64,000 bases of DNA, taken from contig JABIDS010000013.1 of assembly GCA_018651605.1 (NCBI GenBank), positions 64,717 through 128,716 on the forward strand, written 5' to 3'. The stretch comes from an archaeon. Lineage in GTDB: Archaea; Nanobdellota; Nanobdellia; Pacearchaeales; GW2011-AR1. The first letter of the stretch is position 1. The number at the start of each line of letters is the position of its first letter. The notes under the pieces are model-generated. The model did not search any database. It saw only the letters and a program-made list of their open reading frames with translations, and was not told the origin of the DNA. A program made the position numbers and the translations under genes. Of the stretch, positions 11,651-52,930 are shown piece by piece.

Positions 11651-12062
11651 TTTTAAAAAAGCACAATCAGGGATTATTGTAACAATTTTAATTGTGTTAT
11701 TGGTTTTGGGAAGTTTTGTTGTTCTTTGGAATATTGTTTATATGGTTGTTAGAGATAGTAGTGATGAAATTGGAATTGAAGGTTTTGTAACTAGGTTTGA
11801 AATTGAAGGTGTTAGGTTGGATAGTGGAAATGTTTATGTTAATGTTCATCGTGTTAGTGGAGATGAAGTTGTTAAGGAATTGAAGTTTGTTTTTTATTTG
11901 GATGGTGATGTTGTTGGTGAAGGTTCTAAGAGTGCAGATATTCCTAGTGAGATGGAGAGTGAGGAGTATGAGTTTTTGGGTATGGTAGTAGATATGGTTG
12001 GAGTTATTCCTGTTTTTGAGGATGGGAGTTTTGGGTTGGAGGTTGAGGGTGTTGTTGGGTGA
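11628..12062 (+). CDS. pilin-like protein with class III signal peptide
   Basis: FKKA-QSGIIVTILIVLLVLG: a basic stretch, a small residue, Q at +1, then a hydrophobic helix. Confidence 0.5.
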   Translation: MEMLRESSFKKAQSGIIVTILIVLLVLGSFVVLWNIVYMVVRDSSDEIGIEGFVTRFEIEGVRLDSGNVYVNVHRVSGDEVVKELKFVFYLDGDVVGEGSKSADIPSEMESEEYEFLGMVVDMVGVIPVFEDGSFGLEVEGVVG

Positions 12063-19849: not shown

Positions 19850-20186
19850 AGGTTTTAAAAATGGTTTATACTTATATAAATTACTATGCAAGCGATATTA
19901 TATGTTTTGTTGATTTTGTTTGGGATTCCTGTAGGAAAGATTTTGTCTAGTTTGTGTCGTGGGGAGGTTAGTTTATGGCGAAAGAGATTTAGAATTATTG
20001 CATTGGTTTGTTTTCTGTTGATTGGTTTGTTTTTGTTTTTAGATTTTGAAAATAAAATTCCTGTTTTTGTTAGTTTGTTGTTTGTTGTTTTTGTTTCTTT
20101 GAATATTAAATAGAAATGTTTATATATTAAAGTTATTTATTATAGATAATTAAAAATAGAAAATATTTAATGAAAGGAGGTTGAAA

Positions 20187-20627
20187 ATGAGTGATAAAAA
20201 AGGACAAGCAGCTATGGAGTTTTTGATGACCTATGGTTGGGCTATTTTAGCGGCAGTTATTGCTATTGGTGTTCTATCTTATTTTGGGGTTTTCTCTCCG
20301 GGAAATTATGTATCTAATGTAGTTACAGTTAATCAACCTTTTGGAACTACGCAAGAAATGGCTATTAAGACTGATTCTATTGCATTTCTTTTAAGGAATG
20401 GTGGTGGAAGTAGTGCAGATATTGCAAGTGTTGCTGTTGCTGGATGTGGTAATTATTCTACTGCTTTTACATTAGCTGATGGATCCTCACAATTAGTAAC
20501 TGTTCCATGTTCTCCTGTATTAACATCGGATTCTAAGTTTAAAGGAGATATAACTATAACTTATCGTGCTGGAGAAAAAGTTCTTGATTTAACTGGAACA
20601 GGTTCTGTATCAGGTAGAGTAGAATAA
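20187..20627 (+). CDS. major pilin candidate, Flp/Epd-like class III signal peptide
   Basis: MSDKKG-QAAMEFLMTYGWAILAAVIAIGVL: G at -1, Q at +1, and E at +5 followed by F (GxxxxEF/Y). GGAGG at 20176-20180 lies 6 nt before the ATG. Confidence 0.75.
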   Translation: MSDKKGQAAMEFLMTYGWAILAAVIAIGVLSYFGVFSPGNYVSNVVTVNQPFGTTQEMAIKTDSIAFLLRNGGGSSADIASVAVAGCGNYSTAFTLADGSSQLVTVPCSPVLTSDSKFKGDITITYRAGEKVLDLTGTGSVSGRVE

Positions 20628-20699
20628 TTTTATTTTTATTTTTTTTATTTTTTTGTGTTTATGTTGGTGGTGTGAGGTGGATTTATGTTATTTTATTTT

Positions 20700-20800
20700 T
20701 ATATTGCGTCGCTTTCGTTGGCGACTTCGTCAGAGTTCTTCACTGTTGATTCTTGAAATTATGTAATTCTATCTTTTTTTGAAGATGAGTTTTTCTTTGG
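20700..20800 (+). repeat. intergenic GC-hairpin/tail repeat, copy B
   Basis: Sequence: ATATTGCGTCGCTTTCGTTGGCGACTTCGTCAGAG...CACTGTTGATTCTTGAAATT...GAAGATGAGTTTTTCTTTGG. Confidence 0.75.
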
Positions 20801-20898
20801 TTGTTGAGAGGGATTTGGGTTGAAGGTTTGGGTTGAAGGTTTTTGAATTGTTTAGGATAAATCCATAGCTTTTTAAGGTTGGACATCTTTAGTATTTT

Positions 20899-21822
20899 AT
20901 GAGAAGAAAAAAGAGTGTTAAGGTTTCTGAGAAGAAGGTTGTGAAGAAAAAGAAAGTTATGAAAACTAAAACATCTAAGGTGAAAAAATCTAAAGCTAAA
21001 ATTAAGAAAACGAAAAAAACTAAAATTCAGTTATCTAAAACCGATGAGAGTTTATCTGCCGGGTCTGGGAATATTCTTTCTAAGCCTAAAAAGAAAAAAT
21101 TTAGTAATGAGAAGGTTTCTTCTGGGATTAAAGTTTTTGATGGGATGGTTGGAAAGGGTTTTCAGAAAAATTCTACTAATCTGGCTTTAGGAGGGGTTGG
21201 TTCTGGAAAAACTATTTTTGCTATGCAGTTTTTGATTGCAGGAATGAAGAAGAATGAGAAATGTTTGTATCTGTCTTTTGATGAAGAAAAAGAATCATTT
21301 TATGCGAATATGAAGGGGTTGGGATGGGATTTGGAAAGTTATGAAAAAAAAGGAAAATTCTTTTTTCTTAAATATACTCCTCAGAAAATTAAAACTATGT
21401 TGGAGGAGGGGGGCGGAATAATTGAGAACTTAGTTTTAGGTAAAAAAATAAGTAGAATTGTAATGGATAGTATTACTTCGTTTTTGTTTTTATTTAAGGA
21501 TGAAATTGATGAGAGAGAGGCTATTTTGTCTTTGATTAGCTTGTTGAAGAAATGGGATAGTACTACTATTTTGACCTATGAAGGAGATCCTTTGAAGGAG
21601 AATGAAAGTATTCTGAAGACTAGTTCTAGGATTTTGGAATTGGAATCTGATTCTATAGTTCTTTTTTATTTCTTGAGGAATAAGGGGGAGAGGGAGAGAT
21701 ATTTAGAGATTTTGAAGGTTAAGGGTTTTAAACATCCTACAAAAGTTTATCCTTTTTCAATTGAGAAAAATGGAATTAAGATTAGTAAGAATGCGTTTAA
21801 GGGTGAGTTAAAGGCTGAGTGA
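20899..21822 (+). CDS. KaiC/RecA-superfamily ATPase (FlaH/ArlH-like) with a Lys-rich N-terminal extension
   Basis: Contains GIKVFDGMVGKGF...LALGGVGSGKTIFAMQFL (Walker A) and a hydrophobic strand + D (RIVMDSITS, Walker B-like). The first ~65 residues are strongly K-rich. Confidence 0.75.
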   Translation: MRRKKSVKVSEKKVVKKKKVMKTKTSKVKKSKAKIKKTKKTKIQLSKTDESLSAGSGNILSKPKKKKFSNEKVSSGIKVFDGMVGKGFQKNSTNLALGGVGSGKTIFAMQFLIAGMKKNEKCLYLSFDEEKESFYANMKGLGWDLESYEKKGKFFFLKYTPQKIKTMLEEGGGIIENLVLGKKISRIVMDSITSFLFLFKDEIDEREAILSLISLLKKWDSTTILTYEGDPLKENESILKTSSRILELESDSIVLFYFLRNKGERERYLEILKVKGFKHPTKVYPFSIEKNGIKISKNAFKGELKAE

Positions 21823-21827
21823 ATTTC

Positions 21828-22730
21828 TTATAACAATCCATCTAAGAATCCTGCAAGGAATACTCTTGCAAGAAAATAAACTGATATGCTCATGACTAGG
21901 ATTATTGGAAGGTGTTTTAGTCCTTGTTTTTCATCGCCTTTTCCGACTAATCCTAATACCATTGATGCGAAGATATCTATTGTAATCATGAATATTATTG
22001 AGAAATATTTTATGAAAGATATTGAGACATTGATTTTTGAAAGTGTGAAGGGCATGTTGACACTTGCGTCTACTGCCGGGAGTCCAGCTAAGATGTTTGT
22101 TAGAACTTCTACTAAGACTGTTGATAGTGAGAATAGTATTGGTGAGAAGATTGATACTGCGAGGAAAATGAAGATTACATACATTAGAACGCTTGAGGCT
22201 GCTTTTTTTTCAACGAATTTTCTTTCCCTCATACTTACTGCTGTTTGTTCTAGTAATATTGCAAGGTCTCCTCCTGCCCTTATTCCTGAATTAATTAAAA
22301 GGATTGTTTTATGGATTCTTTCAGAGTTTAATCTTTTTGACATATCTAATAGAGATGTTTCAACGTTTTTTCCTGTTGTGAGGTCTTTTCCAGTTTGCAA
22401 GATTTCAGTATCTAGTGGTGCAAATTCTGGCCTTGAACTTAAAAGTATTGCTCTATCTATTGTCATACCTGCTCTTAAGTTGCTTGACATTAATTGTAAA
22501 AAATCTGGAAAAACTTCTTCTACTTTTTTAATTCTTGTGGTTTTTTTCAAATTTTTTCTAACAATGTAAAATATTATTGTTACTATGATTGTTATAAGTG
22601 TGCTGATTGTAGATAGTAGGAGGGTTTTATAAAAATAAAGTGTTATTATTCCTACTATTATTCCTAATAAAATTGCTATGAAGACTACTTTTTTAATTGC
22701 TGAATTATTTTTTCTTATCTTTTTTTTCAT
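21828..22730 (-). CDS. type II secretion system F-domain platform protein (TadC-like)
   Basis: Contains FPDFLQLMSSNLRAGMTIDRAIL...GKNVETSLLDMSKR...SGIRAGGDLAILLEQTA plus C-terminal TM segments. Confidence 0.8.
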   Translation of the reverse strand: MKKKIRKNNSAIKKVVFIAILLGIIVGIITLYFYKTLLLSTISTLITIIVTIIFYIVRKNLKKTTRIKKVEEVFPDFLQLMSSNLRAGMTIDRAILLSSRPEFAPLDTEILQTGKDLTTGKNVETSLLDMSKRLNSERIHKTILLINSGIRAGGDLAILLEQTAVSMRERKFVEKKAASSVLMYVIFIFLAVSIFSPILFSLSTVLVEVLTNILAGLPAVDASVNMPFTLSKINVSISFIKYFSIIFMITIDIFASMVLGLVGKGDEKQGLKHLPIILVMSISVYFLARVFLAGFLDGLL

Positions 22731-22731
22731 T

Positions 22732-23613
22732 TTACAATAGGCTTGGCCTTTTTGATTTAATTAATCCTAAAAACATTATTTGAGCTAAAATTACAAAGAG
22801 GAATAATGTTATAAATAAGAGTGGAGTCATTGTTTTTGAAATGTTTACCATTGATGAGATAATTGTGAGAAATGCTACAGAGAGTGTTGGGATTATTACT
22901 GTGATTAGCATATACATTACTATTAGGGGATTTAGTTTGCTTCCGTAATCTTGTATTTGTATAAGTTGTTCTTCGTTTAGTGTTTTGATACTGTCTTTTA
23001 TTACTACTGCCATGTCGCTTCCTGCTACTATTCCGTTGCTCATCTGCCATAATGTTCTTCTAAAAAAGAGTGATGAGTTTTTTTCTCCTAATTCATCGAG
23101 GACAATGGAATCTGGTTCTCCTGAATTTATTCTTCTTACTGCTATTTTAAATTCATCACTTAAGACTCCATAATCTGATGAAGAGATATTTGCCATTATA
23201 TTAAATAAAGTAATCCCAGAATTAAGTTGAACTAGAATATCTTCTAATGCTGGGAGAAGATTTTTTTCTATGTTTTTTTGTTTTCTTGAAACATAAATTC
23301 TTGGATAGTTTATTTGACTGAAAAATAAAAATCCTGAGAATATGAATGCTATTAGGATGCCAAACAAGAAGAATTTTTTTATATTGAACATAAATAATAT
23401 TGTTGTAGATATTAAGTAAAGAAATATGATATTTATTACAAAGTTTCTTCTGCATATTCCTATATATTCTTCTCTTGTTAGATTATTGTCTGCGTTTTTT
23501 AGGTATATGTTTAATTTTGATTTTTTTTTTGGCCTTATTTTTGAGATGAAAAGTTTAGACCTTTTTTTTAATTTGTATGCTTGAGTAAATGTGAATGGTA
23601 TTCTAAATTTCAT
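22732..23613 (-). CDS. type II secretion system F-domain platform protein (TadB-like)
   Basis: Contains LPALEDILVQLNSGITLFNIM...RRINSGEPDSIVLDELG...SNGIVAGSDMAVVIKD plus TM segments. Lies 1 nt from the downstream gene. Confidence 0.8.
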   Translation of the reverse strand: MKFRIPFTFTQAYKLKKRSKLFISKIRPKKKSKLNIYLKNADNNLTREEYIGICRRNFVINIIFLYLISTTILFMFNIKKFFLFGILIAFIFSGFLFFSQINYPRIYVSRKQKNIEKNLLPALEDILVQLNSGITLFNIMANISSSDYGVLSDEFKIAVRRINSGEPDSIVLDELGEKNSSLFFRRTLWQMSNGIVAGSDMAVVIKDSIKTLNEEQLIQIQDYGSKLNPLIVMYMLITVIIPTLSVAFLTIISSMVNISKTMTPLLFITLFLFVILAQIMFLGLIKSKRPSLL

Positions 23614-23622
23614 ATTAGTTGA

Positions 23623-25257
23623 TTAGTTTTGTTTAGGATGAGTTGAAATCTTTTGTTCTTTTGAATCTTCTTCTGTTTTTAAAATCCTTTTAATATTATT
23701 ATTTGAAACATCTTTTAATAACTCCTCCTTGTTAGAATAATAGAGATTCATTGTTTTTCCAAAACTTTCTAGGGCTCTTATTTTATTTTTAATTAACCAT
23801 AGTAAGACGTCTTTTTTTTCTTTTAAGTTTTTTTCTATTTCGTTGTTTGACATTCCTGTATTTCTTGAAATGTCTTCAAAGAATCTTGAGCTTTCGCTGT
23901 GTTTTATCATTTGGTCTCCTTCAGGTATCCATCTGTAGAGAATATTTGGAGTTATTTTCTCTCCTGTAAATTCAAATTCTGATATGTGTAAAATTCTTCT
24001 TACTCCTTTTCTTCTGTCTCTAAAAACAACGATATTTAGATTAACTGCATTTAGTAAATTTTGTGGGACGTTTAATGGAGGGTTTGTTAGCCTTGAAATT
24101 GTTTCTGCTGAAGAATTTGCATGAAGAGTTGCATAGACACTGTGTCCTGTGTGCATTGCTTCGAACATTACTCTTGCTTCTTCTTCTCTTCTCATTTCTC
24201 CTAAGACTATTCTGTCTGGCCTCATTCTTAGACTATTAACTAATAAATCTAACATTGAAACTTCTCCTTTTCCTTCTGGGTTTGGTGATCTTGTTACTAA
24301 TGGGCACCAATATAGAAATTCTGGAAGTGTTAATTCTCTTGTATCTTCAACACTTATGATTCTATGGTTTGGAGGGATGAAAGGCATACATGCATTTAAT
24401 AATACTGTTTTTCCTGAAGCTGTTCCTCCAGAAATGAGAATGTTCATTTCATATTCAATAGCGAGCCATACTAATACTGCCATGTCTAAACTAATTGTCT
24501 TATTATTTATTAAATCAATAATTGTGAAAGGGTCTCTTGCGAATTTTCTGATTGTTATTGTATTTCCCTTTGTGCTTATTGGATATAAGATGGAATTAAC
24601 CCTATCTCCTGAAATTAGATGAGCATCTAATAGGGGTGCTAATACATTTATTTGTCTTCCAACTCTTCTTGCTATGATGTTTGAGTAGTTGATTATATCT
24701 TCTTCTTTTTCTATAGTTATATTTGTTTTTAACCATCCATATTTTTTATGATAAACCCTTATTGGTTCTTTGGATGAAGGTAAAACTATTTCTTCTAAAT
24801 TAGGGTCATTTACTAAGAATTCTATTTCTCCTAATCCTAACATGTCTTGCATTAATTTTCCTACTAAGAATTTCATCATTCCTAAATCTAGTGTAGGTAA
24901 TTTTTCTTTTAATAAGTCTTCTGCATCTTTCATAAATATTGTTTTTATTTTTTTGAATGCATTGGGGTCTATGATTTCTTTCATTCCTATTGTTGTTGCA
25001 GAAACTAAATTTGTTCTAACTTCATCTAATAAACTTGCTGTTGCAATATTTATTTGTGGAACATTTAATTGATAGAGGTGTCCGTAAGTTTGTTTTTCGA
25101 TATGCACCTTAACTATTGCTCTATCTACTTCTATTTCATAAGTTTCAACTATTCCTAAGGGGGTTTTATTGTTGGTTTTTTTTGATTCTTGATTTTCTGA
25201 TGCCCTATCTAATTTTTCTTTTTTTAAATTTGGTTTAGTTTCTTTTTTCTTTTTCAT
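23623..25257 (-). CDS. type IV pilus/archaellum-type secretion ATPase (FlaI/TadA/VirB11 family)
   Basis: Contains NILISGGTASGKTVLLNACMPFIP (Walker A), IISVEDTRELTL, RPDRIVLGEMRREE (Walker B) and TGHSVYATLHA. Confidence 0.9.
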   Translation of the reverse strand: MKKKKETKPNLKKEKLDRASENQESKKTNNKTPLGIVETYEIEVDRAIVKVHIEKQTYGHLYQLNVPQINIATASLLDEVRTNLVSATTIGMKEIIDPNAFKKIKTIFMKDAEDLLKEKLPTLDLGMMKFLVGKLMQDMLGLGEIEFLVNDPNLEEIVLPSSKEPIRVYHKKYGWLKTNITIEKEEDIINYSNIIARRVGRQINVLAPLLDAHLISGDRVNSILYPISTKGNTITIRKFARDPFTIIDLINNKTISLDMAVLVWLAIEYEMNILISGGTASGKTVLLNACMPFIPPNHRIISVEDTRELTLPEFLYWCPLVTRSPNPEGKGEVSMLDLLVNSLRMRPDRIVLGEMRREEEARVMFEAMHTGHSVYATLHANSSAETISRLTNPPLNVPQNLLNAVNLNIVVFRDRRKGVRRILHISEFEFTGEKITPNILYRWIPEGDQMIKHSESSRFFEDISRNTGMSNNEIEKNLKEKKDVLLWLIKNKIRALESFGKTMNLYYSNKEELLKDVSNNNIKRILKTEEDSKEQKISTHPKQN

Positions 25258-25268
25258 TTATCCTTCCT

Positions 25269-26225
25269 TTATTTTTTCTTTTTTGGTTTTCTTTTAGATG
25301 GTTTTTTGTTTTTTTGTTTTAAGGTTTTCTTTTTTTTAGAAGTTTTTAATTGTTTCTCTTCTTTTGGAATTTGTTTAGTTTTAATATTTTCTTTTTTAGG
25401 TATTTGTTTAGTTTTAATATTTTTCTTAGGCGTGGATTTAATTTCTTTTTTCTTTCTTGTAAAGATTCTTTTTATTAAAGTAATTAAAAATATGAATAAA
25501 AAGAATAAGAAAATTATTGAGAGTGTTAATATTAATTTGTCTTCTGGTATTGCTCTGTAGGCCCAATTGTTTTGAGATAGCCAATAAATTGGGTAGGCTG
25601 CAAATCCTAAGGCTGTTATGAATAAAATTAATGGCGCTTTACTTTTTTTTGGTTTGATTTGTTTTTTGTCAGTTTTTAATTGTTCTTTATTTAGGTTTTG
25701 TTTTTTATCTGTTTGTGTGTCTTTAACTTCTTTTATTTTTAAATTTAGAATTGGCCCGCCTAGCATTGGATAGTCTATATCTGCAAGGTTTCCTGATTCT
25801 AATATTTTGGCCCATTCAAGAGCTACACTATATTCTACTTTGAATAATCTTGCAACATTTTTAACTTTCATTTGTTTTCTTTCTTTGAGGATGTTATATA
25901 TTTTATCTAGGTCTGTCTGCTCTTTGCTTGGATTTATTTTTATACTTTTTAATTCAATTTTTTGTTTTCTGAGTTTTACATCTTTTACTGAGGCAAAAAC
26001 TAAAATAAGTCCTAAGAAAGACCATTGAATTAGGATAAATATTTTTGAGAGAGGGTTTATTTTTTCGCTGTTGTCGAAGATTACTTCATTTACTAAAAAG
26101 CCTGTTAAACTTTTATTGAAGTCTATTGATTCTTTACTGTTGTAGGTAAATACTCCTATATTTATTAAAAGAATTAAAATTACAATTGTAAATGCTTTTA
26201 GGAATATCGGTTTCTCCTCTTTCAT
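25269..26225 (-). CDS. membrane protein of the pilus operon with a Lys-rich tail
   Basis: ORF track. Has N-terminal and central TM segments. The tail contains the duplicated NIKTKQIPK(K/E)E, encoded by a direct DNA repeat at about 25360-25430. Confidence 0.6.
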   Translation of the reverse strand: MKEEKPIFLKAFTIVILILLINIGVFTYNSKESIDFNKSLTGFLVNEVIFDNSEKINPLSKIFILIQWSFLGLILVFASVKDVKLRKQKIELKSIKINPSKEQTDLDKIYNILKERKQMKVKNVARLFKVEYSVALEWAKILESGNLADIDYPMLGGPILNLKIKEVKDTQTDKKQNLNKEQLKTDKKQIKPKKSKAPLILFITALGFAAYPIYWLSQNNWAYRAIPEDKLILTLSIIFLFFLFIFLITLIKRIFTRKKKEIKSTPKKNIKTKQIPKKENIKTKQIPKEEKQLKTSKKKKTLKQKNKKPSKRKPKKKK

Positions 26226-26288
26226 AATGGATAGTGTGTTTGTAATTTTATAAAGGTATTGATTGAATATTGTTTGAGAATTAACCCC

Positions 26289-26303
26289 AACCTTTTTAAT
26301 ATA
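26289..26303 (+). promoter_or_regulatory. conserved promoter module AACCTTTTTAATATA (copy 1)
   Basis: The ~30-nt block AACCTTTTTAATATAcTcTTTCTTATtT is repeated at 27682. The TATA-like core lies 19-28 nt upstream of ATG 26322. Confidence 0.55.
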
Positions 26304-26321
26304 CTCTTTCTTATTTCTGAT

Positions 26322-26753
26322 ATGGAAAAAAGAGTTGGTATTGTATCTAAGAAATCTCAGGTAAGTTTTGAGTATATTGTTATTATGGGATTTGTGACAG
26401 GGATTATTATTGTGATTCTTGGAGTTTCGTTTGTTTATAGTAGTGGTATAAATGATAGGATTAAGATGATACAGGTGAATAATTTTGGGAATAAGATTAT
26501 TTCATCTTCTGAGTCTGTTTTTTATTCTGGTGAGCCGTCTAAGGTGACTATTAAGACTTATTTGCCAGAGGGTGTTGAGAGTGTTGAGATTATTGATGAT
26601 AGTGTTGTTGTTTCTTTGTCATTGAATTCAGGATTTACTAAAGTTGCTTTCATAAGTGAGGTTTCGATTGAAGGAAGTTTGTCTAATTCTTATGGGTTGA
26701 AAAATATTCAACTTGTTTCAGATGACAATAAAATTAATATTATTGAGGGTTAA
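26322..26753 (+). CDS. pilin-like protein (class III signal, Q+1 / E+5-Y)
   Basis: MEKRVGIVSKKS-QVSFEYIVIMGFVTGIIIVILG. The ORF track start at 26259 reads through the promoter. Confidence 0.65.
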   Translation: MEKRVGIVSKKSQVSFEYIVIMGFVTGIIIVILGVSFVYSSGINDRIKMIQVNNFGNKIISSSESVFYSGEPSKVTIKTYLPEGVESVEIIDDSVVVSLSLNSGFTKVAFISEVSIEGSLSNSYGLKNIQLVSDDNKINIIEG

Positions 26754-27146
26754 ATGATTAAACGTTCTCAGACTGCGATAGAGTTTCTTGTTTTGGTTAG
26801 TGCTGTTTTGTTTTTTTTTGTAGTGTTTTTTTTAACTATTGGAGAAAATATTCAGGATAAGACTCGGGAGAATATAAATAAAATTGTGAATGAAATTGCT
26901 TTTTTAGTGCAGGAAGAGATTAGTTTTGCAAGTGAATCTGTTGATGGTTATTATAGGGTGTTTAAAATTCCTGAATCTTTAAATGGATTGGAATATGATA
27001 TTGATGTTAGTGATGGGAGAGTTTATTTGAAAACTTATAATAATAAGTATGCTGTTGCATTACCTGTTCAGGATGTTAGTGGTGAGATTATTAAAGGAGA
27101 GAATGTTTTGAGAAAGGAGGGAGGAGTTATTTATTTGAATAGTTAA
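26754..27146 (+). CDS. pilin-like protein (class III signal, Q+1 / E+5-F)
   Basis: MIKRS-QTAIEFLVLVSAVLFFFVVFF. Directly abuts the previous stop. Confidence 0.65.
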   Translation: MIKRSQTAIEFLVLVSAVLFFFVVFFLTIGENIQDKTRENINKIVNEIAFLVQEEISFASESVDGYYRVFKIPESLNGLEYDIDVSDGRVYLKTYNNKYAVALPVQDVSGEIIKGENVLRKEGGVIYLNS

Positions 27147-27147
27147 G

Positions 27148-27654
27148 ATGGTAAGTCAAAAAGCGCAAGCATGGGGTATTGATTTAATGGCTGCGATGAC
27201 AATTTTTATTGTGGCTATAACTGTTTTTTTTGTTTATTCTTTGAATCAGTCTGGAGAGGCGAGAAGTATTATAGAAGATTTGAATTATGATGGAAAAATA
27301 TTTTCAAATGATTTGACATCTGAAGGATATCCTGATGATTGGGTTGAAGCGAATGTTGTTAAAATTGGTTTGACTAATGGGGGCAAAATTAATCAGATAA
27401 AGTTAGAAAAGTTTTATAATTTTTCTCAGGAGGATTATGCAAGGACTAAACTTGTTTTTAATTTGAAGTATGATTATTTTTTCTTTTTTGAAGAGAATAT
27501 GACTGTTGGAGGATTGAGTGTTGAAGGAATTGGTAGGCCTGGAGTTACAAGAGATTTTATAGAAAATGAGGTTAGTAATTTTATTAAGGTGACTCGATTG
27601 ATGGTTTATGAGGATAAGCCGATTACTGCGAATGTTTATATTTGGGAGGAGTGA
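27148..27654 (+). CDS. pilin-like protein (class III signal, Q+1)
   Basis: MVSQKA-QAWGIDLMAAMTIFIVAITVFFV. Confidence 0.6.
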   Translation: MVSQKAQAWGIDLMAAMTIFIVAITVFFVYSLNQSGEARSIIEDLNYDGKIFSNDLTSEGYPDDWVEANVVKIGLTNGGKINQIKLEKFYNFSQEDYARTKLVFNLKYDYFFFFEENMTVGGLSVEGIGRPGVTRDFIENEVSNFIKVTRLMVYEDKPITANVYIWEE

Positions 27655-27681
27655 AGGGTTTATTCATTAATTTTGAACACT

Positions 27682-27696
27682 AACCTTTTTAATATA
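27682..27696 (+). promoter_or_regulatory. conserved promoter module AACCTTTTTAATATA (copy 2)
   Basis: Same block as at 26289. Lies upstream of ATG 27724. Confidence 0.55.
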
Positions 27697-27723
27697 TTGT
27701 TTCTTATATTTGAAGTGATTAAT

Positions 27724-30282
27724 ATGAAAAAAAGAGGAGTATTTTTTAGCACTGATGCATTGATTGCTTTGATGATTATATTTGTTAGTGTGTTGATTAT
27801 TTATCCTGTTGTAAAATATGCTCCTGAGAAGAATTATATTCAGGAGGATATACTTAATGTGCTTTCTTCTTTGAAGATAGATGAGATTGAGGAGGTTTAT
27901 GTTGAAGGGAATATTACTAATTTGAATAATTCTGTGATGGAACAGATTGGAGAGTTTTATGTGACTGATTTAAGTGCTGCGCGGGTTCTTGCTAGTTTTG
28001 TTCTTGAGAATATTGATGCTAGAGAGAATGTTGGGATTTGGTATGGGAATAAATTATTGGCAAGTAGAAATGTTAGTAGTTATGAGGAATCAGAGGATGT
28101 TACTGTGGCTAGGAGAGTTATAAGTGGAATTCGTGAGGGAGAAAGTGTAACTGGTTTTTCTTCGAGGGCTTTTCTTAAAAGTAATGTTAGAACAAAGTAT
28201 TTTTATTTTGGTGGATATGTTGGAGAAGGAAATATTTCTATTAAGGTTGATTATGAAGGGGATTTAAATAATGTGGATTTAGAGGTTGCTGCGAATACTA
28301 ATTTTTCTATTTGTGTAAATGGTGGAGCTTGCTATGGGTATCTTGAGCCTGCTGATTCTTATTTTGAACCTAAGAAATTTAGTTCGCTTGACCTTCCTTT
28401 AGTGAGTGGTTCTAATGTTGTTAAATTTGTTCCTGCAAATCCTGATGAGGAATTATTTATTGCAGGAGGTTATTTGAAAATTAATTATGATGATGGAGAT
28501 TATTTTGAGATTTATTCGGATAGATATTATTTTCCAGGAATTGAGGGGCTTATTAATCTTTATGATGGGTTTTATGTTCCTGAGGTTTTGACTGGGATGA
28601 ATATTTTTTTGCATTATAAAAGTCCTTATGTGATGTTTCTTAATATTGGTAATGTGACTGTTTTTAATGATAGTTCTGAAGATGAAACAACTTTTGAGAT
28701 AAGTAATGCGGAGTTAGAGAATTTAGAGGGATTTGATTATGATTTTTTGAGCCAAAAAACTATTCCTTTGAGATTAGGTTTGGAGAGTGCTTCTTATGTT
28801 TCTGATGGTAGGGATGCAGATGTTTTTTCAGTAACTGATTTAAGTGGAAGTATGGATGATGATTTAAGTTGTTCTGGAGGGGATTCTGAATGTTGTGAGA
28901 GGTGTTTTCTGTGGTTTTGTTGGGACTCTTGTGAGGGTGATATGGATTTATGTGAGTCATGTGGAGGGACTCTTTCTGGTAAAATTATTTCTGCTATTGA
29001 GGCTAATAATTTATTTATTGATGCTGTTTTGAATAATTCTAATAATCTTGTTGGTTTGTCAAGTTATGCCGGAGATGTTCTAAGTGGTCATTCTCATAAT
29101 CTTTCAAATGATGATGTTTCTTTGAAAAATAAGGTTTCTGGATGGGAGGCTGGAGGTAGTACTTGTATTTGTTGCGGTATTAATGATGCTGTTCAGAATC
29201 TTCTTGATGATTCAAGTGAAGATAAATTTCGTTCAATGGTTGTAATGAGTGACGGTGAGGCGAATGTAGAATGTGATGAGCAAGGATGGACTGAGGATTT
29301 AAATCTTAATGGGGATACAGATGATGCTGGTGATGATGCAATTCAGGCTGCTTGTGATGCTTATGAAAATTATGGTATTACTGTTTATTCAATTGGTTTT
29401 GGATCTGGAGTAGATGAAGATACTCTTGAGGGAATTGCTTCTTGCGGTAATGGGACTTATAATTATTCTAGTACAACTCAATTGGAAGAGGTTTATCAAC
29501 AAATTGCTGAAGAAATAATTGAAGCTTCTTATAGTGAGCAAACTATTGAAGTAACTGGAGATTTTGAGAATACCTATCTTTATCCTGATTCTTATATTGA
29601 GTTTGATTATGTTGGTTCTTCTCTTCCTTATGGTTTGATTATTTCTGGGGAGGAACAGTTTTCAGATAATTATTTTGGTAATTTTAATATTCCTGAAGAT
29701 TCAGAGAAACTTAGTGCGAATGTTGTTTCTTATTCTGGTTCTCGGTGGACTGATGAGGTTTCTATAAATAATATTTCAGTATATAATCTTGATGTTTATA
29801 ATTCAGATTATGTTGAGCTTGGAGATCCTTATCATGTTGATATTCCCATGGGCTTGATTAATGATACAAATTCTATTAAACTTACTACTGGTTATTCTTT
29901 TGATAATTCTACTGAAGGTTCTGTTTATAATAAAATTATTTATCAAGTTGTTAAGAATGTTACTTCTTATTCTCCGATTTCTAGTTCTGCAGAAGGTTGT
30001 AAATGGTTTTTAGATTTTGAAGAGGTTAGTAATTTGACTTTTTATGTTCCTTCAGATTATGATGAAGAAAATTTTTGTAATTATCAAGAAGGGAATATTC
30101 AGTATGATGAAAATGATGCTATTCAAAGGGCTGTTTTTTATCTTTTGGAGGAATTAGATTTTGATGGGGATGGTAAGTTGGATGTTCAATTTTCTGAACA
30201 GGATTTGGATATAAGCTCTTCAGAGATTGTGGGTATTCCTTTTGGTTGGTCAACAGAGGTGCAAGTTAGAAAATGGCATTAG
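27724..30282 (+). CDS. 852-aa pilin-like protein with a von Willebrand factor A domain (putative tip adhesin)
   Basis: N-terminus MKKRG-VFFSTDALIALMIIFVSVLIIY. The vWA MIDAS motif DVFSVTDLSGSM lies at about nt 28819-28854, with VVMSDGEAN further on. An eight-Cys insert LSCSGGDSECCERCFLWFCWDSCEGDMDLCESC directly follows the MIDAS motif. Confidence 0.75.
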   Translation: MKKRGVFFSTDALIALMIIFVSVLIIYPVVKYAPEKNYIQEDILNVLSSLKIDEIEEVYVEGNITNLNNSVMEQIGEFYVTDLSAARVLASFVLENIDARENVGIWYGNKLLASRNVSSYEESEDVTVARRVISGIREGESVTGFSSRAFLKSNVRTKYFYFGGYVGEGNISIKVDYEGDLNNVDLEVAANTNFSICVNGGACYGYLEPADSYFEPKKFSSLDLPLVSGSNVVKFVPANPDEELFIAGGYLKINYDDGDYFEIYSDRYYFPGIEGLINLYDGFYVPEVLTGMNIFLHYKSPYVMFLNIGNVTVFNDSSEDETTFEISNAELENLEGFDYDFLSQKTIPLRLGLESASYVSDGRDADVFSVTDLSGSMDDDLSCSGGDSECCERCFLWFCWDSCEGDMDLCESCGGTLSGKIISAIEANNLFIDAVLNNSNNLVGLSSYAGDVLSGHSHNLSNDDVSLKNKVSGWEAGGSTCICCGINDAVQNLLDDSSEDKFRSMVVMSDGEANVECDEQGWTEDLNLNGDTDDAGDDAIQAACDAYENYGITVYSIGFGSGVDEDTLEGIASCGNGTYNYSSTTQLEEVYQQIAEEIIEASYSEQTIEVTGDFENTYLYPDSYIEFDYVGSSLPYGLIISGEEQFSDNYFGNFNIPEDSEKLSANVVSYSGSRWTDEVSINNISVYNLDVYNSDYVELGDPYHVDIPMGLINDTNSIKLTTGYSFDNSTEGSVYNKIIYQVVKNVTSYSPISSSAEGCKWFLDFEEVSNLTFYVPSDYDEENFCNYQEGNIQYDENDAIQRAVFYLLEELDFDGDGKLDVQFSEQDLDISSSEIVGIPFGWSTEVQVRKWH

Positions 30283-31205
30283 TAAAATTAAATAAAAAAG
30301 GAATTTTTTTTACGATGATGGCTATTGCCTTATTGTCTTTGTTTATAATTTCATATAGTACTTATTCTGTTTTTCAGGGAAGAGAAGCGATTAGTAAAAG
30401 AATTAAAACAATGAATGATTTTATTTTTTTAGTTGAAGAAGATTTGTCTAGGCAATTATATATTTCAGGTTTTAGAATTATTTTTCTATTTGAGAATCGG
30501 ATTATTGAAACTGGTGAGTATATTGATGATGTGAATTTTAGTTTTCAGGAATCGTTATATAATGGGACTCTCTATGGTGTAGAGAAAGAGATTATGCAAG
30601 GAGTTACTATGGATGGGATTGCTGATTCTCTTAATGAAAAGGCATTGAAGATTAATGCAAATGTTAGTTTGATTGATACTTCTGTTGAGATAATGCAGGA
30701 AGATGCTTGGAATGTTTTGTTGAAGTTTGAAGGAACATTGCTTGTTCAAGATAAAGGGGGGCTTGTTTTGTGGAATAAGACTCATCAGGATTTTTTGTAT
30801 ATTCCTGTTGAAAATTTTAAGGATCCTCTTTACCTTGTGAATACATATGGGCATATGTCTCATGATATTAATAAAACTCCTTATGAGGTTTTTGTTTCAG
30901 GAAATAATGTTTCTAATTTAAGTGCTCATTTGATGAACTTTTATTATAGGGAATCTAGTTCTGCGCCTAGTTTTTTGAAAAGGTTGGAAGGAGATATTAG
31001 TGCGGATGTTAATGGAATTGAATCTTTTGTTTATGTTCCTAATTTACCTAGCGGAGTTTCTGTTTTGCAAAAATCTGATTTGGATTATATTTATTTTTCA
31101 GCTAATAATCCTAGTTCTTATAAAATTCAAGGAATGCCTTCTTGGTTTGAGTTAGATGATGATGCTTTGGTTAGGTATGGGGCTGAAGGGTTGAAGATTG
31201 TGTGA
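30273..31205 (+). CDS. pilin-like protein (class III signal, G-IFF type)
   Basis: MALVKLNKKG-IFFTMMAIALLSLFIISY. Overlaps the upstream gene by 10 nt. Confidence 0.6.
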   Translation: MALVKLNKKGIFFTMMAIALLSLFIISYSTYSVFQGREAISKRIKTMNDFIFLVEEDLSRQLYISGFRIIFLFENRIIETGEYIDDVNFSFQESLYNGTLYGVEKEIMQGVTMDGIADSLNEKALKINANVSLIDTSVEIMQEDAWNVLLKFEGTLLVQDKGGLVLWNKTHQDFLYIPVENFKDPLYLVNTYGHMSHDINKTPYEVFVSGNNVSNLSAHLMNFYYRESSSAPSFLKRLEGDISADVNGIESFVYVPNLPSGVSVLQKSDLDYIYFSANNPSSYKIQGMPSWFELDDDALVRYGAEGLKIV

Positions 31206-31379: not shown

Positions 31380-31739
31380 ATGGAAGAGAGGATGTTACTT
31401 TGGATAATTGTAGGAGTTTTGGTTTTAGGTTTAATTGGTTTTTTATATTATTTTCAGTATGAAAGTGAAGTTCCTATTTTTGAGAAAATTAAAAATAGTT
31501 GGTTTAATGAGGAGGTTGGAGATGAAGAAGATAGTGTTGAGGATTTGAATGATGAGGTTGGAGAAAGAGTTGGTGGGAGTGGAAGTGGTGAGAGTGGTGA
31601 AGAGGGTTTTGAGTTACCTGATGATTTAGAAAGTGTCCCTTGTGGATTTTATTTTGCAGATTATAATATTTGTGCAGGAGTTTGTCCTGGAGGGGTTTGT
31701 GAATTAGAAGGGAGGAGTTGTTATTGTAAATCAGGTTAA
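31380..31739 (+). CDS. membrane-anchored acidic protein with a Cys-rich C-terminal knot, hypothetical
   Basis: ORF track. Has an N-terminal TM segment, a D/E/G-rich linker, and CGFYFADYNICAGVCPGGVCELEGRSCYC. Confidence 0.55.
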   Translation: MEERMLLWIIVGVLVLGLIGFLYYFQYESEVPIFEKIKNSWFNEEVGDEEDSVEDLNDEVGERVGGSGSGESGEEGFELPDDLESVPCGFYFADYNICAGVCPGGVCELEGRSCYCKSG

Positions 31740-52168: not shown

Positions 52169-52930
52169 TCACTCATACTTATTCAAAAATTCAAAGATAT
52201 ATGGCTCAGATGAAGTTTTGTTTTCAGAAATAATTATTAATGTTGTTTGTTCGTCAAACTCGAGCATGTCAGTGTAAACATCTCGTTCTTCTGACATTTG
52301 GGCGACGCAGTTGATGCAAATTAGGTCTGGGTTTTCATTGTGGGATGTTGTTATGAAGTCTGCGATTTCTAGGATTTCGTAGAGTTTAGAGTTTATTGTT
52401 GTTGGGTGTTCTTTTGTTTCGAATTTTATTTTGTTGTTTTCTTTTTCAATTGTTATTGATGTATCTATTGTGAATTTGACTTGTTGTTTTTGGATTTGTG
52501 TTGTTGTTTGGAGGTTTTTGTATTCTAATGTGAAATCTCCTAGGTTTATTTTGTTTAGACATAGGCCTGTTTTTTCGTTTGTGTATTGTTGTAGTTGATT
52601 TGTTATCATTGTTTTTGTGGGCATTAGTTGTTGCCCTTGGTTATAATAGTAGGGTATGAATGCCCAGCTCATGTCAAATGCTTGAGGAGGTTTTTCGTAG
52701 TATCCTCCTTGGATTCCGATTAGTATTAGGGCTTGTTTAGATGTTTCATCTATGCAATTTATTATTGAATCTTGGATATTGTTTAGTTCTGGTTTTATGT
52801 TTGATTGAGCAAAGAATTGTTTTGAGTTTTCTGAGTCTATTTTTGATTTTCCTAAGTAGATTACTGTGCCTACTATTGCGATTATTATTATTGTGACTAT
52901 TATGAATATTGTTATTTGCCCCTTTTTCAT
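52169..52930 (-). CDS. pilin-like protein (class III signal, Q+1)
   Basis: MKKG-QITIFIIVTIIIIAIVGTVIYL. Confidence 0.5.
   Translation of the reverse strand: MKKGQITIFIIVTIIIIAIVGTVIYLGKSKIDSENSKQFFAQSNIKPELNNIQDSIINCIDETSKQALILIGIQGGYYEKPPQAFDMSWAFIPYYYNQGQQLMPTKTMITNQLQQYTNEKTGLCLNKINLGDFTLEYKNLQTTTQIQKQQVKFTIDTSITIEKENNKIKFETKEHPTTINSKLYEILEIADFITTSHNENPDLICINCVAQMSEERDVYTDMLEFDEQTTLIIISENKTSSEPYIFEFLNKYE

What the first reader, a model, noticed from the sequence alone, without database searches (positions are those of the whole stretch)
20187..31205. Complete-looking Epd/Tad-like type IV pilus locus with six pilin-like genes
The locus holds 11 genes in divergent operons:
- A major pilin candidate (20187).
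- A KaiC/FlaH-like ATPase (20899).
- Two separate ~300-aa T2SS-F platform proteins (21828 and 22732), as in bacterial TadB/TadC, not a single FlaJ/PilC.
- A FlaI/TadA ATPase (23623).
- A Lys-tailed membrane protein (25269).
- Five more proteins with class III signal peptides (26322-31205).

Four of the pilin-like N-termini have Q at +1, and three of these also have E at +5 followed by F or Y (KKG-QAAMEFL, KKS-QVSFEYI, KRS-QTAIEFL). That combines the bacterial Flp GxxxxEY signature with the Q+1 known from EppA-dependent archaeal pilins. The other two use a G-(V/I)FF junction. Two further pilin-like genes lie elsewhere in the window (11628 and 52169). No prepilin peptidase is present in the window. 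For a small-genome archaeon, such a large investment in a surface filament suggests attachment, possibly to a host cell.
Basis: partly seen in the sequence, partly recalled or inferred. Interest (0 to 1): 0.7.

Follow-up and report, generated by a model that had tools for sequence, protein, structure and literature searches.

The report
Conserved type IV pilus locus, DPANN archaeon
This is a real, complete-looking gene cluster for building a hair-like surface filament (a type IV pilus) in a tiny, probably host-dependent archaeon; the same cluster turns up in 80 related species, so it is a good example of a known kind of machine, not a new one.

Summary
In detail: all 11 ORFs exist at the stated coordinates. 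They encode:
- a FlaI/TadA-superfamily ATPase;
- two paralogous single-domain T2SSF platform proteins;
- a single-domain KaiC-like ATPase;
- a membrane protein;
- six proteins with class III (prepilin-type) N-termini.

The same 11-gene set is syntenic around the ATPase in 80 species-level Pacearchaeota/Woesearchaeota/Nanoarchaeota genomes. Processing-site residues are invariant: Q+1 in four families, E+5 in three, D+6 in two.

The 146-aa stand-alone pilin models as an N-terminal helix plus a beta-sandwich. Its best structural matches are archaeal type IV pilins. The 852-aa pilin carries a VWA/MIDAS domain. The membrane protein is a two-helix anchor plus a cytoplasmic winged helix. No prepilin peptidase lies in the window, its flanks or the related loci.

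The "new combination" of Q+1 with E+5 is the published DUF361/EppA-substrate motif. Only Tyr or Phe at +6 is additional.

Split platforms, KaiC-type ATPases and multi-pilin sets are already described for archaeal pili, including DPANN loci. The ATPase is not an archaellum ArlI. It lies outside the AfGspE+FlaI pair and somewhat nearer bacterial CpaF. Placement in the Epd clade could not be tested.

Verdict: new member of a known kind, moderate interest.

The parts
20187..20627 (+). P1: stand-alone prepilin, 146 aa, KKG|QAAMEFLMTYGWAILAA. Candidate major pilin.
   Evidence: The N-terminal ~30 residues are invariant in 41 related species. The AF2 model has pLDDT 85, with a helix at residues 3-32 and a beta-sandwich carrying two conserved Cys. 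The top Foldseek hits are archaeal type IV pilins 8fk7 and 8q30. The gene has its own TATA-like box, a GGAGG ribosome-binding site and a poly-T terminator. It is syntenic in 41/80 loci.
20899..21822 (+). Single-domain KaiC-like ATPase with a Lys-rich N-terminal extension. Probable accessory or regulatory ATPase, analogous to ArlH.
   Evidence: PF06745 KaiC, E = 1e-47. The NCBIfam ArlH model scores only 47.8 bits against a cutoff of 215. It is present in 58/80 loci, usually co-oriented directly after the second platform gene.
21828..22730 (-). Platform protein C2 (T2SSF). Corresponds to the C-terminal half of a full-length ArlJ/PilC.
   Evidence: PF00482, E = 3e-14. It aligns to ArlJ model positions 186-463 of 465. 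It is a paralog of C1: hhalign probability 100%, E = 2e-39. Present in 77/80 loci.
22732..23613 (-). Platform protein C1 (T2SSF), the first of the split pair.
   Evidence: PF00482, E = 3.5e-14. Present in 78/80 loci. One base separates it from C2 and nine bases separate it from the ATPase gene.
23623..25257 (-). Assembly ATPase of the FlaI/TadA/VirB11 secretion ATPase superfamily.
   Evidence: PF00437, E = 3e-36, plus a weak PilB3_C hit. FlaI model 284 bits against a cutoff of 550; TadA 182 against 373. PDB sequence matches: AfGspE 229 bits, FlaI 205, CpaF 174. Walker A GGTASGKT and the Asp, Walker B and His boxes can be read directly in the sequence. More than 7500 homologs exist; the top ones are 65-88% identical and come from Pacearchaeota or Nanoarchaeota.
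25269..26225 (-). Membrane-anchored winged-helix protein. Conserved core is residues 1-165; the C-terminal two TM helices and Lys-rich tail are variable.
   Evidence: First gene of the ATPase operon, present in 75/80 loci. AF2: two TM helices, then H-beta-H-H-beta-beta at residues 105-162 with pLDDT 82-92. Foldseek matches are MarR/ArsR-type winged helices. No Pfam family.
26226..26321 (.). Divergent intergenic region with a TATA-like box facing each operon.
   Evidence: TTTAATATA lies about 20 nt upstream of the P7 ATG. TTTATAAAA on the minus strand lies about 18-20 nt upstream of the membrane-protein ATG (read directly). Promoter function is inferred.
26322..26753 (+). P7: minor prepilin, KKS|QVSFEYI.
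   Evidence: Q+1 and E+5 in 66/66 relatives and Y+6 in 61/66. PF04021 Class_IIIsignal is hit by 17/46 family members. Full-length paralog of P8: hhalign 95.9%.
26754..27146 (+). P8: minor prepilin, KRS|QTAIEFL.
   Evidence: Q+1 and E+5 in 64/64 relatives. PF23928 DUF7266 is hit by 23/45 members (best E = 2e-8) and PF04021 by 10/45.
27148..27654 (+). P9: minor prepilin, QKA|QAWGIDL.
   Evidence: Q+1 and D+6 in 55/55 relatives, and W+3 nearly invariant. No Pfam family.
27724..30282 (+). Large modular prepilin, KRG|VFFSTDAL, with a VWA/MIDAS domain split by a Cys-rich insert. Candidate tip adhesin.
   Evidence: PF00092 VWA, E = 6e-10. The MIDAS motif TDLSGSM is at residues 370-376 (DxSxS at 372-376). 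About 37 of 49 relatives keep the equivalent motif; a few 620-640-aa relatives lack the domain. D+6 in 47/47.
30273..31205 (+). P11: 310-aa prepilin-like protein, KKG|IFFT, with no acidic residue near the N-terminus.
   Evidence: [KR][GAS] followed by a hydrophobic stretch in 44/47 relatives, with no E or D at +5 or +6. Present in 46/80 loci, always after the VWA gene. No Pfam family.
31380..31739 (+). Possible twelfth component: a 119-aa protein with one TM helix, an acidic linker and a Cys-rich C-terminus.
   Evidence: It follows P11 in 11 related loci. No Pfam family. Membership is weak.
11634..12062 (+). Stand-alone pilin-like gene, KKA|QSGIIVTILIV.
   Evidence: Class-III-like N-terminus. 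No Pfam family. A homolog sits beside the pilus locus in L001. Link to this system is unproven.
52169..52930 (-). Stand-alone pilin-like gene, KKG|QITIFIIV.
   Evidence: Class-III-like N-terminus. No significant Pfam hit. Two homologs sit beside the locus in L001.

Best explanation
The locus encodes the assembly machine and subunits of an archaeal type IV pilus. This pilus is standard equipment in Pacearchaeota/Woesearchaeota-type DPANN archaea.

**Proposed mechanism**
1. Six prepilins insert into the membrane. A class III signal peptidase encoded elsewhere cuts them after [KR][G/A/S].
   - Four have the Q+1 that EppA-type peptidases require.
   - Two have I or V at +1.
2. The hexameric ATPase (23623-25257) docks on a heterodimeric platform made of the two half-size T2SSF proteins. 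It drives extraction and polymerisation of processed pilins.
3. The KaiC-like ATPase probably acts as an accessory or regulatory ring, as ArlH does in the archaellum.
4. The membrane-anchored winged-helix protein that opens the ATPase operon is either a scaffold for the ATPase or a membrane-tethered regulator.
5. The operon P7-P8-P9-VWA-P11 supplies a priming or tip complex.
   - The VWA/MIDAS pilin is the adhesin.
   - P11 lacks the acidic residue, as tip-capping GspK-type pseudopilins do.
6. The separately and probably strongly expressed P1 forms the shaft.

The likely role is adhesion to surfaces or host cells.

**Shown here:** gene identities, conservation, motif invariance, the pilin fold of P1, and the winged-helix fold.

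**Inferred:** stoichiometry, roles of the minor pilins, the function of KaiC and the winged-helix protein, and the target of adhesion.
For: - Domain assignments.
- Synteny of all 11 genes in 80 species-level genomes, with unconserved flanks.
- Invariant processing-site residues across 41-66 orthologs per family.
- The P1 model is a helix plus a beta-sandwich, and its top structural matches are the Pyrobaculum and Sulfolobus type IV pilins.
- P1 has its own promoter-like box, ribosome-binding site and terminator.
- P7 and P8 are paralogs. They hit Class_IIIsignal, and P8 also hits DUF7266.
- C1 and C2 are paralogs, and C2 matches the C-terminal half of ArlJ.
- The VWA MIDAS motif is conserved in most orthologs.
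- Catalytic motifs of both ATPases are intact (read directly).
- Literature describes the same architecture: two platform genes, KaiC/FlaH-type ATPases and multiple pilins in archaeal pili (PMC4858521, PMC6668835), Q+1/E+5 EppA substrates (PMC3875500, PMC4371748), and VWA-bearing modular pilins acting as adhesins in bacteria (PMC8179133, title and abstract as listed; TadG as cited in PMC4858521).
Against: - No prepilin peptidase was found in the window, its flanks or any of the 80 related loci. The processing step therefore rests on an unseen gene.
- Four of the six families (P9, VWA, P11, and P7/P8 copies with Ser at -1, as in this window) fail my from-memory version of the FlaFind core pattern. 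The real predictor could not be run.
- There is no expression or imaging evidence.
- P1's status as major pilin is inferred. The two stand-alone pilin-like genes elsewhere in the window could also be shaft subunits.
- A few orthologs of the large pilin lack the VWA domain.
Confidence: 0.8

Rival explanations
1. The machine builds a short pseudopilus or a dynamic pilus for uptake, either of DNA (competence-like) or of substrates (bindosome-like). This would feed an auxotrophic small-genome cell, and adhesion would not be its main role.
For: - The gene set resembles monoderm Com and T2SS-type systems: one ATPase, a platform, one major pilin and four or five minor pilins, including one large subunit without E5.
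- The BasE bindosome model gives 146 bits.
- Literature proposes pilus-mediated DNA uptake for ultra-small cells (PMC9938205) and class III substrate-binding proteins for archaeal TFF systems (preprint 10.64898/2026.04.22.720090).
Against: - None of the six class III proteins has a substrate-binding-protein domain.
- The BasE score of 146 is far below its cutoff of 1000.
- No ComEC/DprA-type gene lies in the conserved 11-gene set.
- The conserved VWA/MIDAS pilin points to ligand adhesion.
- No second (retraction) ATPase is in the locus.
Confidence: 0.12
2. The locus is a divergent archaellum: a rotary swimming filament with FlaI, FlaH and FlaJ equivalents.
For: - JGI and NCBI pipelines label homologs 'archaeal flagellar protein FlaI'.
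- The best NCBIfam model for the ATPase is FlaI at 284 bits.
- A KaiC/ArlH-like ATPase is present.
- Some DPANN do have archaella (PMC11104419).
Against: - FlaI scores 284 against an equivalog cutoff of 550, and ArlH scores 48 against 215.
- The platform is split in two, unlike the single ArlJ.
- No archaellin domain is found in any of the eight class III proteins.
- No ArlF/G stator or ArlC/D/E/X genes appear in the conserved set.
- The ATPase lies outside the FlaI+AfGspE pair.
Confidence: 0.02
3. The cluster is a mosaic of two systems sharing a neighbourhood. [quoted passage not shown]
For: - Makarova et al. show that ATPase/TadC modules and pilin sets recombine and can act in trans (PMC4858521).
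- The module P9-VWA-P11-P1 moves as a block to the other side of the machinery in about 15 loci.
- P1 shares only its N-terminus with P7 and P8.
Against: - Despite the rearrangement, the pilin genes stay within the same locus as the ATPase in almost every contig long enough to show them.
- P7-P8 always sit divergently next to the machinery operon.
- Flanking genes change freely while these do not.
Confidence: 0.05

Closest known systems
Epd (EppA-dependent) pilus of Methanococcus maripaludis. This is Makarova clade 1, called 'system 1' in the 2026 MacSyFinder census.
   Same: - One ATPase plus two contiguous half-size platform genes (EpdL with EpdJ/K).
- Many pilins with a short signal ending in G or A, then Q+1 and E+5 (the DUF361 motif).
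- Five or more minor pilins, including large ones.
- A secondary RecA-type ATPase nearby.
- An adhesion role.

Sources: PMC4371748, PMC3875500, PMC4858521, PMC6668835. Window data.
   Different: - The candidate major pilin here is 146 aa with a beta-sandwich head. EpdE is about 74 aa and headless.
- Y or F at +6 is conserved here but absent in M. maripaludis pilins (PMC3875500).
- Two of the six pilins have I or V at +1.
- No EppA is encoded in the locus.
- The adhesin is a VWA pilin, not a DUF2341 protein.
- A membrane-anchored winged-helix protein opens the operon.
- ATPase clade 1 membership is untested.
Bacterial Tad/Flp (type IVc) pilus.
   Same: - A split TadB/TadC-type platform.
- A single TadA/CpaF-like ATPase. 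The window ATPase scores 181 bits against CpaF, while AfGspE and FlaI score 149-152.
- An acidic +5 followed by an aromatic +6, as in the Flp motif.
- A set of small minor pilins plus a VWA-bearing pilin-like protein, as with TadE/F/G (TadG is cited in PMC4858521).
   Different: - The TadA model scores 182 bits against a cutoff of 373.
- No Flp, TadE or Tad-family Pfam hits in any pilin.
- No TadZ; a KaiC-like ATPase stands in its place.
- No secretin or RcpB/C.
- The major pilin has a globular domain.
Euryarchaeal clade 2 pili: AfGspE of Archaeoglobus, and PilB3/PilC3 and PilB4 loci of Haloferax.
   Same: - Best sequence match among solved structures: AfGspE, 229 bits, aligned through the C-terminal domain.
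- A weak PilB3_C hit in the window and precomputed PilB3_C hits in many close homologs.
- Association with KaiC-family ATPases and, in many genomes, two tadC genes (PMC4858521).
- P8 belongs to DUF7266. I believe this is a haloarchaeal pilin-like family, but that is from memory and was not checked.
   Different: - The pilins are not of the PilA/Pilin_N type. Only 1 of 48 P1 relatives gives a marginal Pilin_N hit.
- Q+1/E+5 signals replace the haloarchaeal type.
- In core-region scores the ATPase is no closer to AfGspE (206 bits) than to FlaI (201). Those two are much closer to each other at 281 bits.
DPANN type IV pilus 'dark-matter islands' (Makarova, Wolf and Koonin 2019, PMC6393860 Fig. 2A) and the DPANN system 1 and 4A loci in preprint 10.64898/2026.04.22.720090.
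   Same: DPANN loci with FlaI, TadC and TadB, surrounded by unannotated signal-peptide proteins predicted to be pilins. Two platform genes are noted for DPANN. This is almost certainly the same class of locus.
   Different: As far as I could read, those papers give census-level descriptions. They do not describe the 11-gene architecture, the invariant processing motifs, the VWA pilin or the winged-helix membrane protein documented here.
Archaellum.
   Same: A FlaI-superfamily ATPase, a KaiC/ArlH-like second ATPase, and class III processed subunits.
   Different: - It fails the ArlI, ArlH and ArlJ equivalog cutoffs.
- The platform is split.
- There are no archaellins and no ArlF, ArlG or ArlCDE/X.

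Membership tests
Type IV filament (TFF) superfamily, archaeal type IV pilus | Secretion ATPase of the VirB11/FlaI/TadA family | tested here: met
   PF00437, E = 3e-36. The Walker A, Asp, Walker B and His boxes are intact.
Type IV filament (TFF) superfamily, archaeal type IV pilus | Polytopic platform protein with T2SSF domain(s) | tested here: met
   Two adjacent genes with one PF00482 domain each. They are paralogs by hhalign.
Type IV filament (TFF) superfamily, archaeal type IV pilus | At least one pilin with a class III signal peptide and an N-terminal hydrophobic helix | tested here: met
   Six proteins in the locus have this N-terminus, and the motifs are invariant across orthologs. P7 and P8 relatives hit PF04021. 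The P1 model matches archaeal pilins 8fk7 and 8q30.
Type IV filament (TFF) superfamily, archaeal type IV pilus | Class III signal (prepilin) peptidase | tested here: not met
   None in the window, about 6-10 kb of flanks, or the 80 related loci. It could be encoded elsewhere in the genome, which these tools cannot reach.
Epd pilus / clade 1 / system 1 | Platform split into two contiguous genes next to the ATPase | tested here: met
   Gene order is ATPase, C1, C2 with gaps of 9 nt and 1 nt. This order is conserved in 77-78 of 80 loci.
Epd pilus / clade 1 / system 1 | Pilins with the DUF361 motif (Q+1, E+5), substrates of EppA | tested here: met
   P1, P7 and P8 have Q+1 and E+5 in every ortholog. 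PF04021 hits are found in the P7 and P8 families. JGI names some P1 relatives 'UPF0333 family'.
Epd pilus / clade 1 / system 1 | Short (~60-75 aa) major pilin without a globular domain (arCOG06620 type) | tested here: not met
   P1 is 146 aa with a beta-sandwich. The class III scan, which covered ORFs of at least 60 aa, found no short pilin in the window. One could exist elsewhere in the genome.
Epd pilus / clade 1 / system 1 | Dedicated EppA peptidase | not testable with these tools
   It is absent from the window and from the related loci.
Epd pilus / clade 1 / system 1 | ATPase branches within clade 1 alongside EpdL | tested here: inconclusive
   No EpdL reference sequence was obtainable. 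The quartet with AfGspE, FlaI and CpaF places the window ATPase outside AfGspE+FlaI and nearer CpaF. That fits clade 1 but does not demonstrate it.
Bacterial Tad/Flp pilus | TadA/CpaF ATPase | tested here: not met
   TIGR03819 scores 182 bits against a cutoff of 373. Core identity to CpaF is 36.6%.
Bacterial Tad/Flp pilus | Flp pilin and TadE/TadF/TadG families | tested here: not met
   No Flp_Fap, TadE or Tad Pfam hits in the window proteins or in 45-48 orthologs per family. Only the generic VWA domain is shared with TadG.
Bacterial Tad/Flp pilus | TadZ, and the secretin RcpA | tested here: not met
   Neither is in the conserved gene set. A secretin is not expected in an archaeon.
Archaellum | ArlI, ArlH and ArlJ equivalogs | tested here: not met
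   ArlI 284 bits against 550. ArlH 48 against 215. ArlJ 35 against 400, and the platform is split.
Archaellum | Archaellin subunits and ArlF/ArlG (plus ArlCDE or ArlX) | tested here: not met
   No archaellin hit in any class III protein. No additional conserved genes beyond the 11.
Euryarchaeal clade 2 pili (AfGspE / PilB3 type) | ATPase of arCOG01817 type with the PilB3-like C-terminal domain | tested here: inconclusive
   The best PDB match is AfGspE, aligned to residue 512. PilB3_C scores 20 bits against a cutoff of 27. The core region is equidistant from AfGspE and FlaI.
Euryarchaeal clade 2 pili (AfGspE / PilB3 type) | PilA-type (Pilin_N) major pilins | tested here: not met
   Only 1 of 48 P1 relatives gives a marginal Pilin_N hit.

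The most novel reading that the evidence does not exclude
The Pacearchaeota/Woesearchaeota pilus may be a distinct, lineage-wide branch of archaeal type IV filaments that sits on the Epd/Tad side of the tree. The features pointing that way are:
- an ATPase nearer CpaF than FlaI or AfGspE are;
- a fissioned platform;
- an E5-Y6/F6 pilin motif;
- TadE/F-like small pilins plus a TadG-like VWA pilin.

Unlike Epd and Tad, it keeps a globular-headed major pilin and the clade 2-type ATPase C-terminal domain. That would make it the least derived living relative of the ancestor from which both Epd and bacterial Tad pili arose. It would also be the organelle by which these abundant, uncultured episymbionts seize their hosts.
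Probability: 0.2. Interest if true: 0.6.

Novelty: new member of a known kind. Interest (0 to 1): 0.35.

Why it matters
Pacearchaeota and Woesearchaeota are among the most abundant uncultured archaea in groundwater and sediments. How they contact hosts is unknown.

This work shows that one well-defined 11-gene pilus system is near-universal and highly conserved in them. The ATPase is 60-76% identical across species, and the first 30 residues of the shaft pilin are invariant. That gives concrete targets:
- P1 for filament identification in cryo-ET or cryo-EM;
- the VWA pilin for host-receptor searches;
- the missing peptidase.

It also corrects the assumption in one groundwater study (10.1101/2020.05.14.094862) that type IV pilus genes are missing from DPANN, so that piliated ultra-small cells must be CPR bacteria.

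The intermediate character of the ATPase and pilins may help resolve how bacterial Tad pili descended from archaeal systems.

Tried and rejected
1. **Archaellum reading.** Rejected on NCBIfam equivalog cutoffs and missing accessory genes.

2. **Peptidase search.**
   - Pfam on most multi-TM proteins of the window.
   - Six-frame GxGD motif scan of the window.
   - The same motif in multi-TM ORFs of the 80 loci.
   - Precomputed Pfam on flanks beyond both window ends.
   - Nothing was found. The 242-aa membrane protein at 14880-15608 has no Pfam hit and no GxGD motif, so it is not a candidate.

3. **Placing the ATPase in Makarova's clades.**
   - No EpdL, PilB3, UpsE or AapE sequences could be fetched.
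   - The exhaustive representative search returned 150 unnamed proteins, all closer to the query than any reference.
   - Cluster look-up named only one of ten, an Altiarchaeota protein at 42% identity.
   - I settled for a four-taxon comparison using PDB sequences transcribed from the alignments.

4. **Sequence search of P1 against solved structures.** No hit. The fold comparison was needed.

5. **Pfam on the P1, P9 and P11 families.** No family.

6. **Database search for the membrane protein.** Only 10 hits among 5.8 billion proteins, because it evolves fast. The local BLAST against related loci was more informative.

7. **FlaFind and PilFind.** They could not be run, and the original FlaFind paper is not held. 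I used a core pattern from memory, and its result should be treated as indicative only.

8. **Literature search for DUF7266 and PilB3_C.** Nothing useful.

Full report
**Observation**

The window is low-GC DNA (about 33%) from a DPANN archaeon. The ATPase is 100% identical to an NCBI protein labelled 'CpaF family protein [archaeon]'. Its nearest relatives are from Candidatus Pacearchaeota, Woesearchaeota and Nanoarchaeota MAGs.

Profile searches confirm the machinery:
- KaiC domain, E = 1e-47, at 20899-21822.
- One T2SSF domain each, E = 3e-14, at 21828-22730 and 22732-23613.
- T2SSE ATPase, E = 3e-36, at 23623-25257.
- VWA domain, E = 6e-10, in the 852-aa protein at 27724-30282.

The six N-termini read as reported.

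**Conservation**

A scan of one genome per species returned 80 loci around close homologs of the ATPase, at 60-76% identity. BLAST of the window proteins against all ORFs of those loci shows that every one of the 11 genes travels with the ATPase. Counts are 41 to 78 of 80, limited by contig ends. The window's flanking genes (DtdA, Sua5, diphthine synthase) appear in only 2-6 loci.

The architecture is stereotyped:
- One operon runs winged-helix membrane protein, ATPase, C1, C2, and usually KaiC.
- P7-P8 are transcribed divergently from it.
- A block P9-VWA-P11(-P1) either follows P8 or lies beyond KaiC.

In the window, gene spacing fits two divergent operons plus a monocistronic P1. The gaps in the ATPase operon are 11, 9 and 1 nt. 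P7 to P11 are abutting or overlapping, apart from a 69-nt gap before the VWA gene. TATA-like boxes face both ways in the 96-bp divergent spacer. P1 has its own TATA-like box, a GGAGG site and a poly-T tract.

**The prepilins**

Across orthologs the processing region is under very strong constraint.

| Family | Conserved motif | Counts |
|---|---|---|
| P1 | [KR]G\|QAAMEFLMTYGWAILAA | essentially invariant in 41 species |
| P7 | [KR][GAS]\|QxSxEY | Q+1 and E+5 in 66/66, Y+6 in 61/66 |
| P8 | \|QSAIEF | 64/64 |
| P9 | \|QAWGxD | Q+1 and D+6 in 55/55 |
| VWA pilin | [KR][GA]\|[VIY]FFSxD | D+6 in 47/47 |
| P11 | [KR][GAS]\|[IQM]xFT | no acidic residue |

Other findings on the pilins:
- P7 and P8 are full-length paralogs (hhalign 95.9%). 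P1 shares only the N-terminal segment with them.
- Members of the P7 and P8 families hit Pfam Class_IIIsignal (PF04021, formerly DUF361). Half of the P8 family hits DUF7266.
- P1, P9 and P11 belong to no Pfam family.
- An AlphaFold2 model of P1 was built on 48 homologs (pLDDT 85). It shows a helix at residues 3-32 and a beta-sandwich with two conserved cysteines.
- Its two best Foldseek hits in the PDB are the Pyrobaculum calidifontis type IV pilin (8fk7) and the Sulfolobus Aap pilin (8q30).
- The large pilin has a MIDAS motif (TDLSGSM at residues 370-376; DxSxS at 372-376). About 37 of 49 orthologs keep it. A Cys-rich insert separates it from the rest of the VWA fold.

**The machinery**

- C1 and C2 are paralogs (E = 2e-39). 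C2 aligns to the C-terminal half of ArlJ models. This is what the fission scenario for TadB/TadC predicts (PMC6668835).
- The ATPase fails the ArlI equivalog cutoff (284 against 550) and the TadA cutoff (182 against 373).
- Among solved structures its best sequence match is AfGspE (2OAP, 229 bits, aligned through the C-terminal domain). FlaI follows at 205 bits and CpaF at 174. AfGspE is Makarova's clade 2 (supplement).
- Over the shared core, the window ATPase scores 206, 201 and 181 bits against AfGspE, FlaI and CpaF. AfGspE and FlaI score 281 against each other but only 149-152 against CpaF.
- So the window ATPase is not inside the archaellum lineage or the AfGspE lineage, and it is measurably closer to Tad CpaF than they are. 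This fits an Epd/Tad-side or independent deep position.
- No clade 1 (EpdL) sequence could be obtained, so that placement is open.
- The KaiC-like protein is far below the ArlH cutoff (48 against 215).
- The 'Lys-tailed membrane protein' has a conserved core of about 165 residues: two TM helices and a cytoplasmic winged helix. The AF2 winged-helix segment has pLDDT 82-92, and the Foldseek matches are MarR/ArsR-like. Its extra two TM helices and Lys-rich tail are variable.

**Missing part**

No class III signal peptidase was found in any of the following:
- the window;
- about 10 kb beyond its right end and about 6 kb beyond its left end;
- any of the 80 related loci.

The peptidase must act in trans. 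The two classes of cleavage site (Q+1 versus I/V+1) could mean either one permissive PibD-type enzyme or two enzymes as in M. maripaludis (PMC4371748).

**Comparison with what is known**

It is the published DUF361 motif QXSXEXXXL of EppA substrates (PMC2910488). All M. maripaludis Epd pilins have G at -1, Q+1 and E+5, though they lack the +6 Tyr (PMC3875500). The conserved Y or F at +6 is therefore the only extra Flp-like trait.
- Two platform genes, KaiC/FlaH-type ATPases, and five or more minor pilins plus a large adhesin are described for archaeal clades 1 and 2 (PMC4858521, PMC6668835).
- DPANN pilus islands with FlaI, TadB and TadC and unannotated pilins were shown in PMC6393860 (Fig. 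2A). A 2026 census reports two-platform systems in DPANN (10.64898/2026.04.22.720090).
- The locus departs from Epd/Tad in its globular major pilin, its VWA pilin in place of a DUF2341 adhesin, and the winged-helix membrane protein.
- One groundwater study assumed that type IV pilus components are missing from DPANN (10.1101/2020.05.14.094862). The present data, and other genome reports (PMC8561730), contradict that.

**Mechanism and verdict**

The best explanation is a type IV pilus with these parts:
- a shaft of P1;
- priming or tipping by P7, P8, P9, P11 and the VWA adhesin;
- assembly by the ATPase on a C1/C2 platform, with a KaiC-like accessory ATPase and a membrane-anchored winged-helix partner;
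- processing by an unlinked peptidase.

I put the probability that it is a filament-assembly system at about 0.9, and the probability that adhesion is its main role at about 0.6. The confidence of 0.8 attached to the best explanation refers to the pilus-assembly model as a whole.

The finding is real and well characterised here, but it is a new member of a known kind. Interest is moderate. It rests on the lineage-wide conservation in abundant uncultured episymbionts and on the intermediate, Tad-leaning character of the ATPase and pilins.

Noticed in passing
window 1-64000 (whole window): Extreme strand compositional asymmetry. GC skew of the + strand is 0.39 overall. At third codon positions, + strand genes have (G-C)/(G+C) of +0.67 to +1.0, so C is almost absent. 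Minus-strand genes show -0.28 to -0.85 on their own coding strand. The bias therefore follows the DNA strand, not the coding strand. T exceeds A on the same strand, and about 70 of about 88 ORFs lie on the + strand. The sign never flips within 64 kb. Some related loci show similar skews of 0.28 to 0.36 in either direction (L001, L018, L037, L010, L022); others show none.
   Followed up: partly
relatives of window 23623-25257 (P0254, P0260 and many other ~1000-1200-aa representatives): Many homologs of the pilus ATPase carry an intein (Intein_splicing plus a LAGLIDADG homing endonuclease). It is inserted a few residues to about 20 residues after the Walker A motif, near query residues 280-306. 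The window copy has no intein. One representative, P0253, looks like a tandem fusion of two ATPases.
   Followed up: partly
window 31380-31739 (+): A 119-aa protein with one TM helix, an acidic Gly/Glu-rich linker and a Cys-rich C-terminus (CGFYFADYNICAGVCPGGVCELEGRSCYCKSG). It follows the last pilin gene here and in 11 related loci. It has no Pfam family and may be an extra component of the pilus locus.
   Followed up: partly
window 20899-21050, 25100-25257, 25269-25420: Long Lys-rich, low-complexity extensions occur on three cytoplasmic or membrane components of the locus: the KaiC N-terminus, the ATPase N-terminus and the C-terminus of the membrane protein. They vary in length among relatives, and their function is unknown.
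   Followed up: no
window 32168-32956 (+): The diphthine-synthase-like gene just downstream carries a short tandem peptide repeat near its C-terminus (KGLKGLGGKRVKGLKGLEGKKVKGLKGLEGKKVK). This is an unusual insertion in a housekeeping enzyme.
   Followed up: no
window 19886-20113 (+): A 75-aa protein with two or three TM helices lies directly upstream of the P1 pilin gene. It recurs in 5 related loci, in 3 of them directly beside P1, and mostly together with DtdA (and Sua5 in 2). This suggests it belongs to that housekeeping neighbourhood and not to the pilus system.
   Followed up: no
window 61328-61774 (+): A Peptidase_C39-like protein of 148 aa sits between an ArsR-type HTH gene and a cysteine desulfurase. 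C39 domains usually process double-glycine leader peptides, so its role here is unclear (precomputed Pfam).
   Followed up: no
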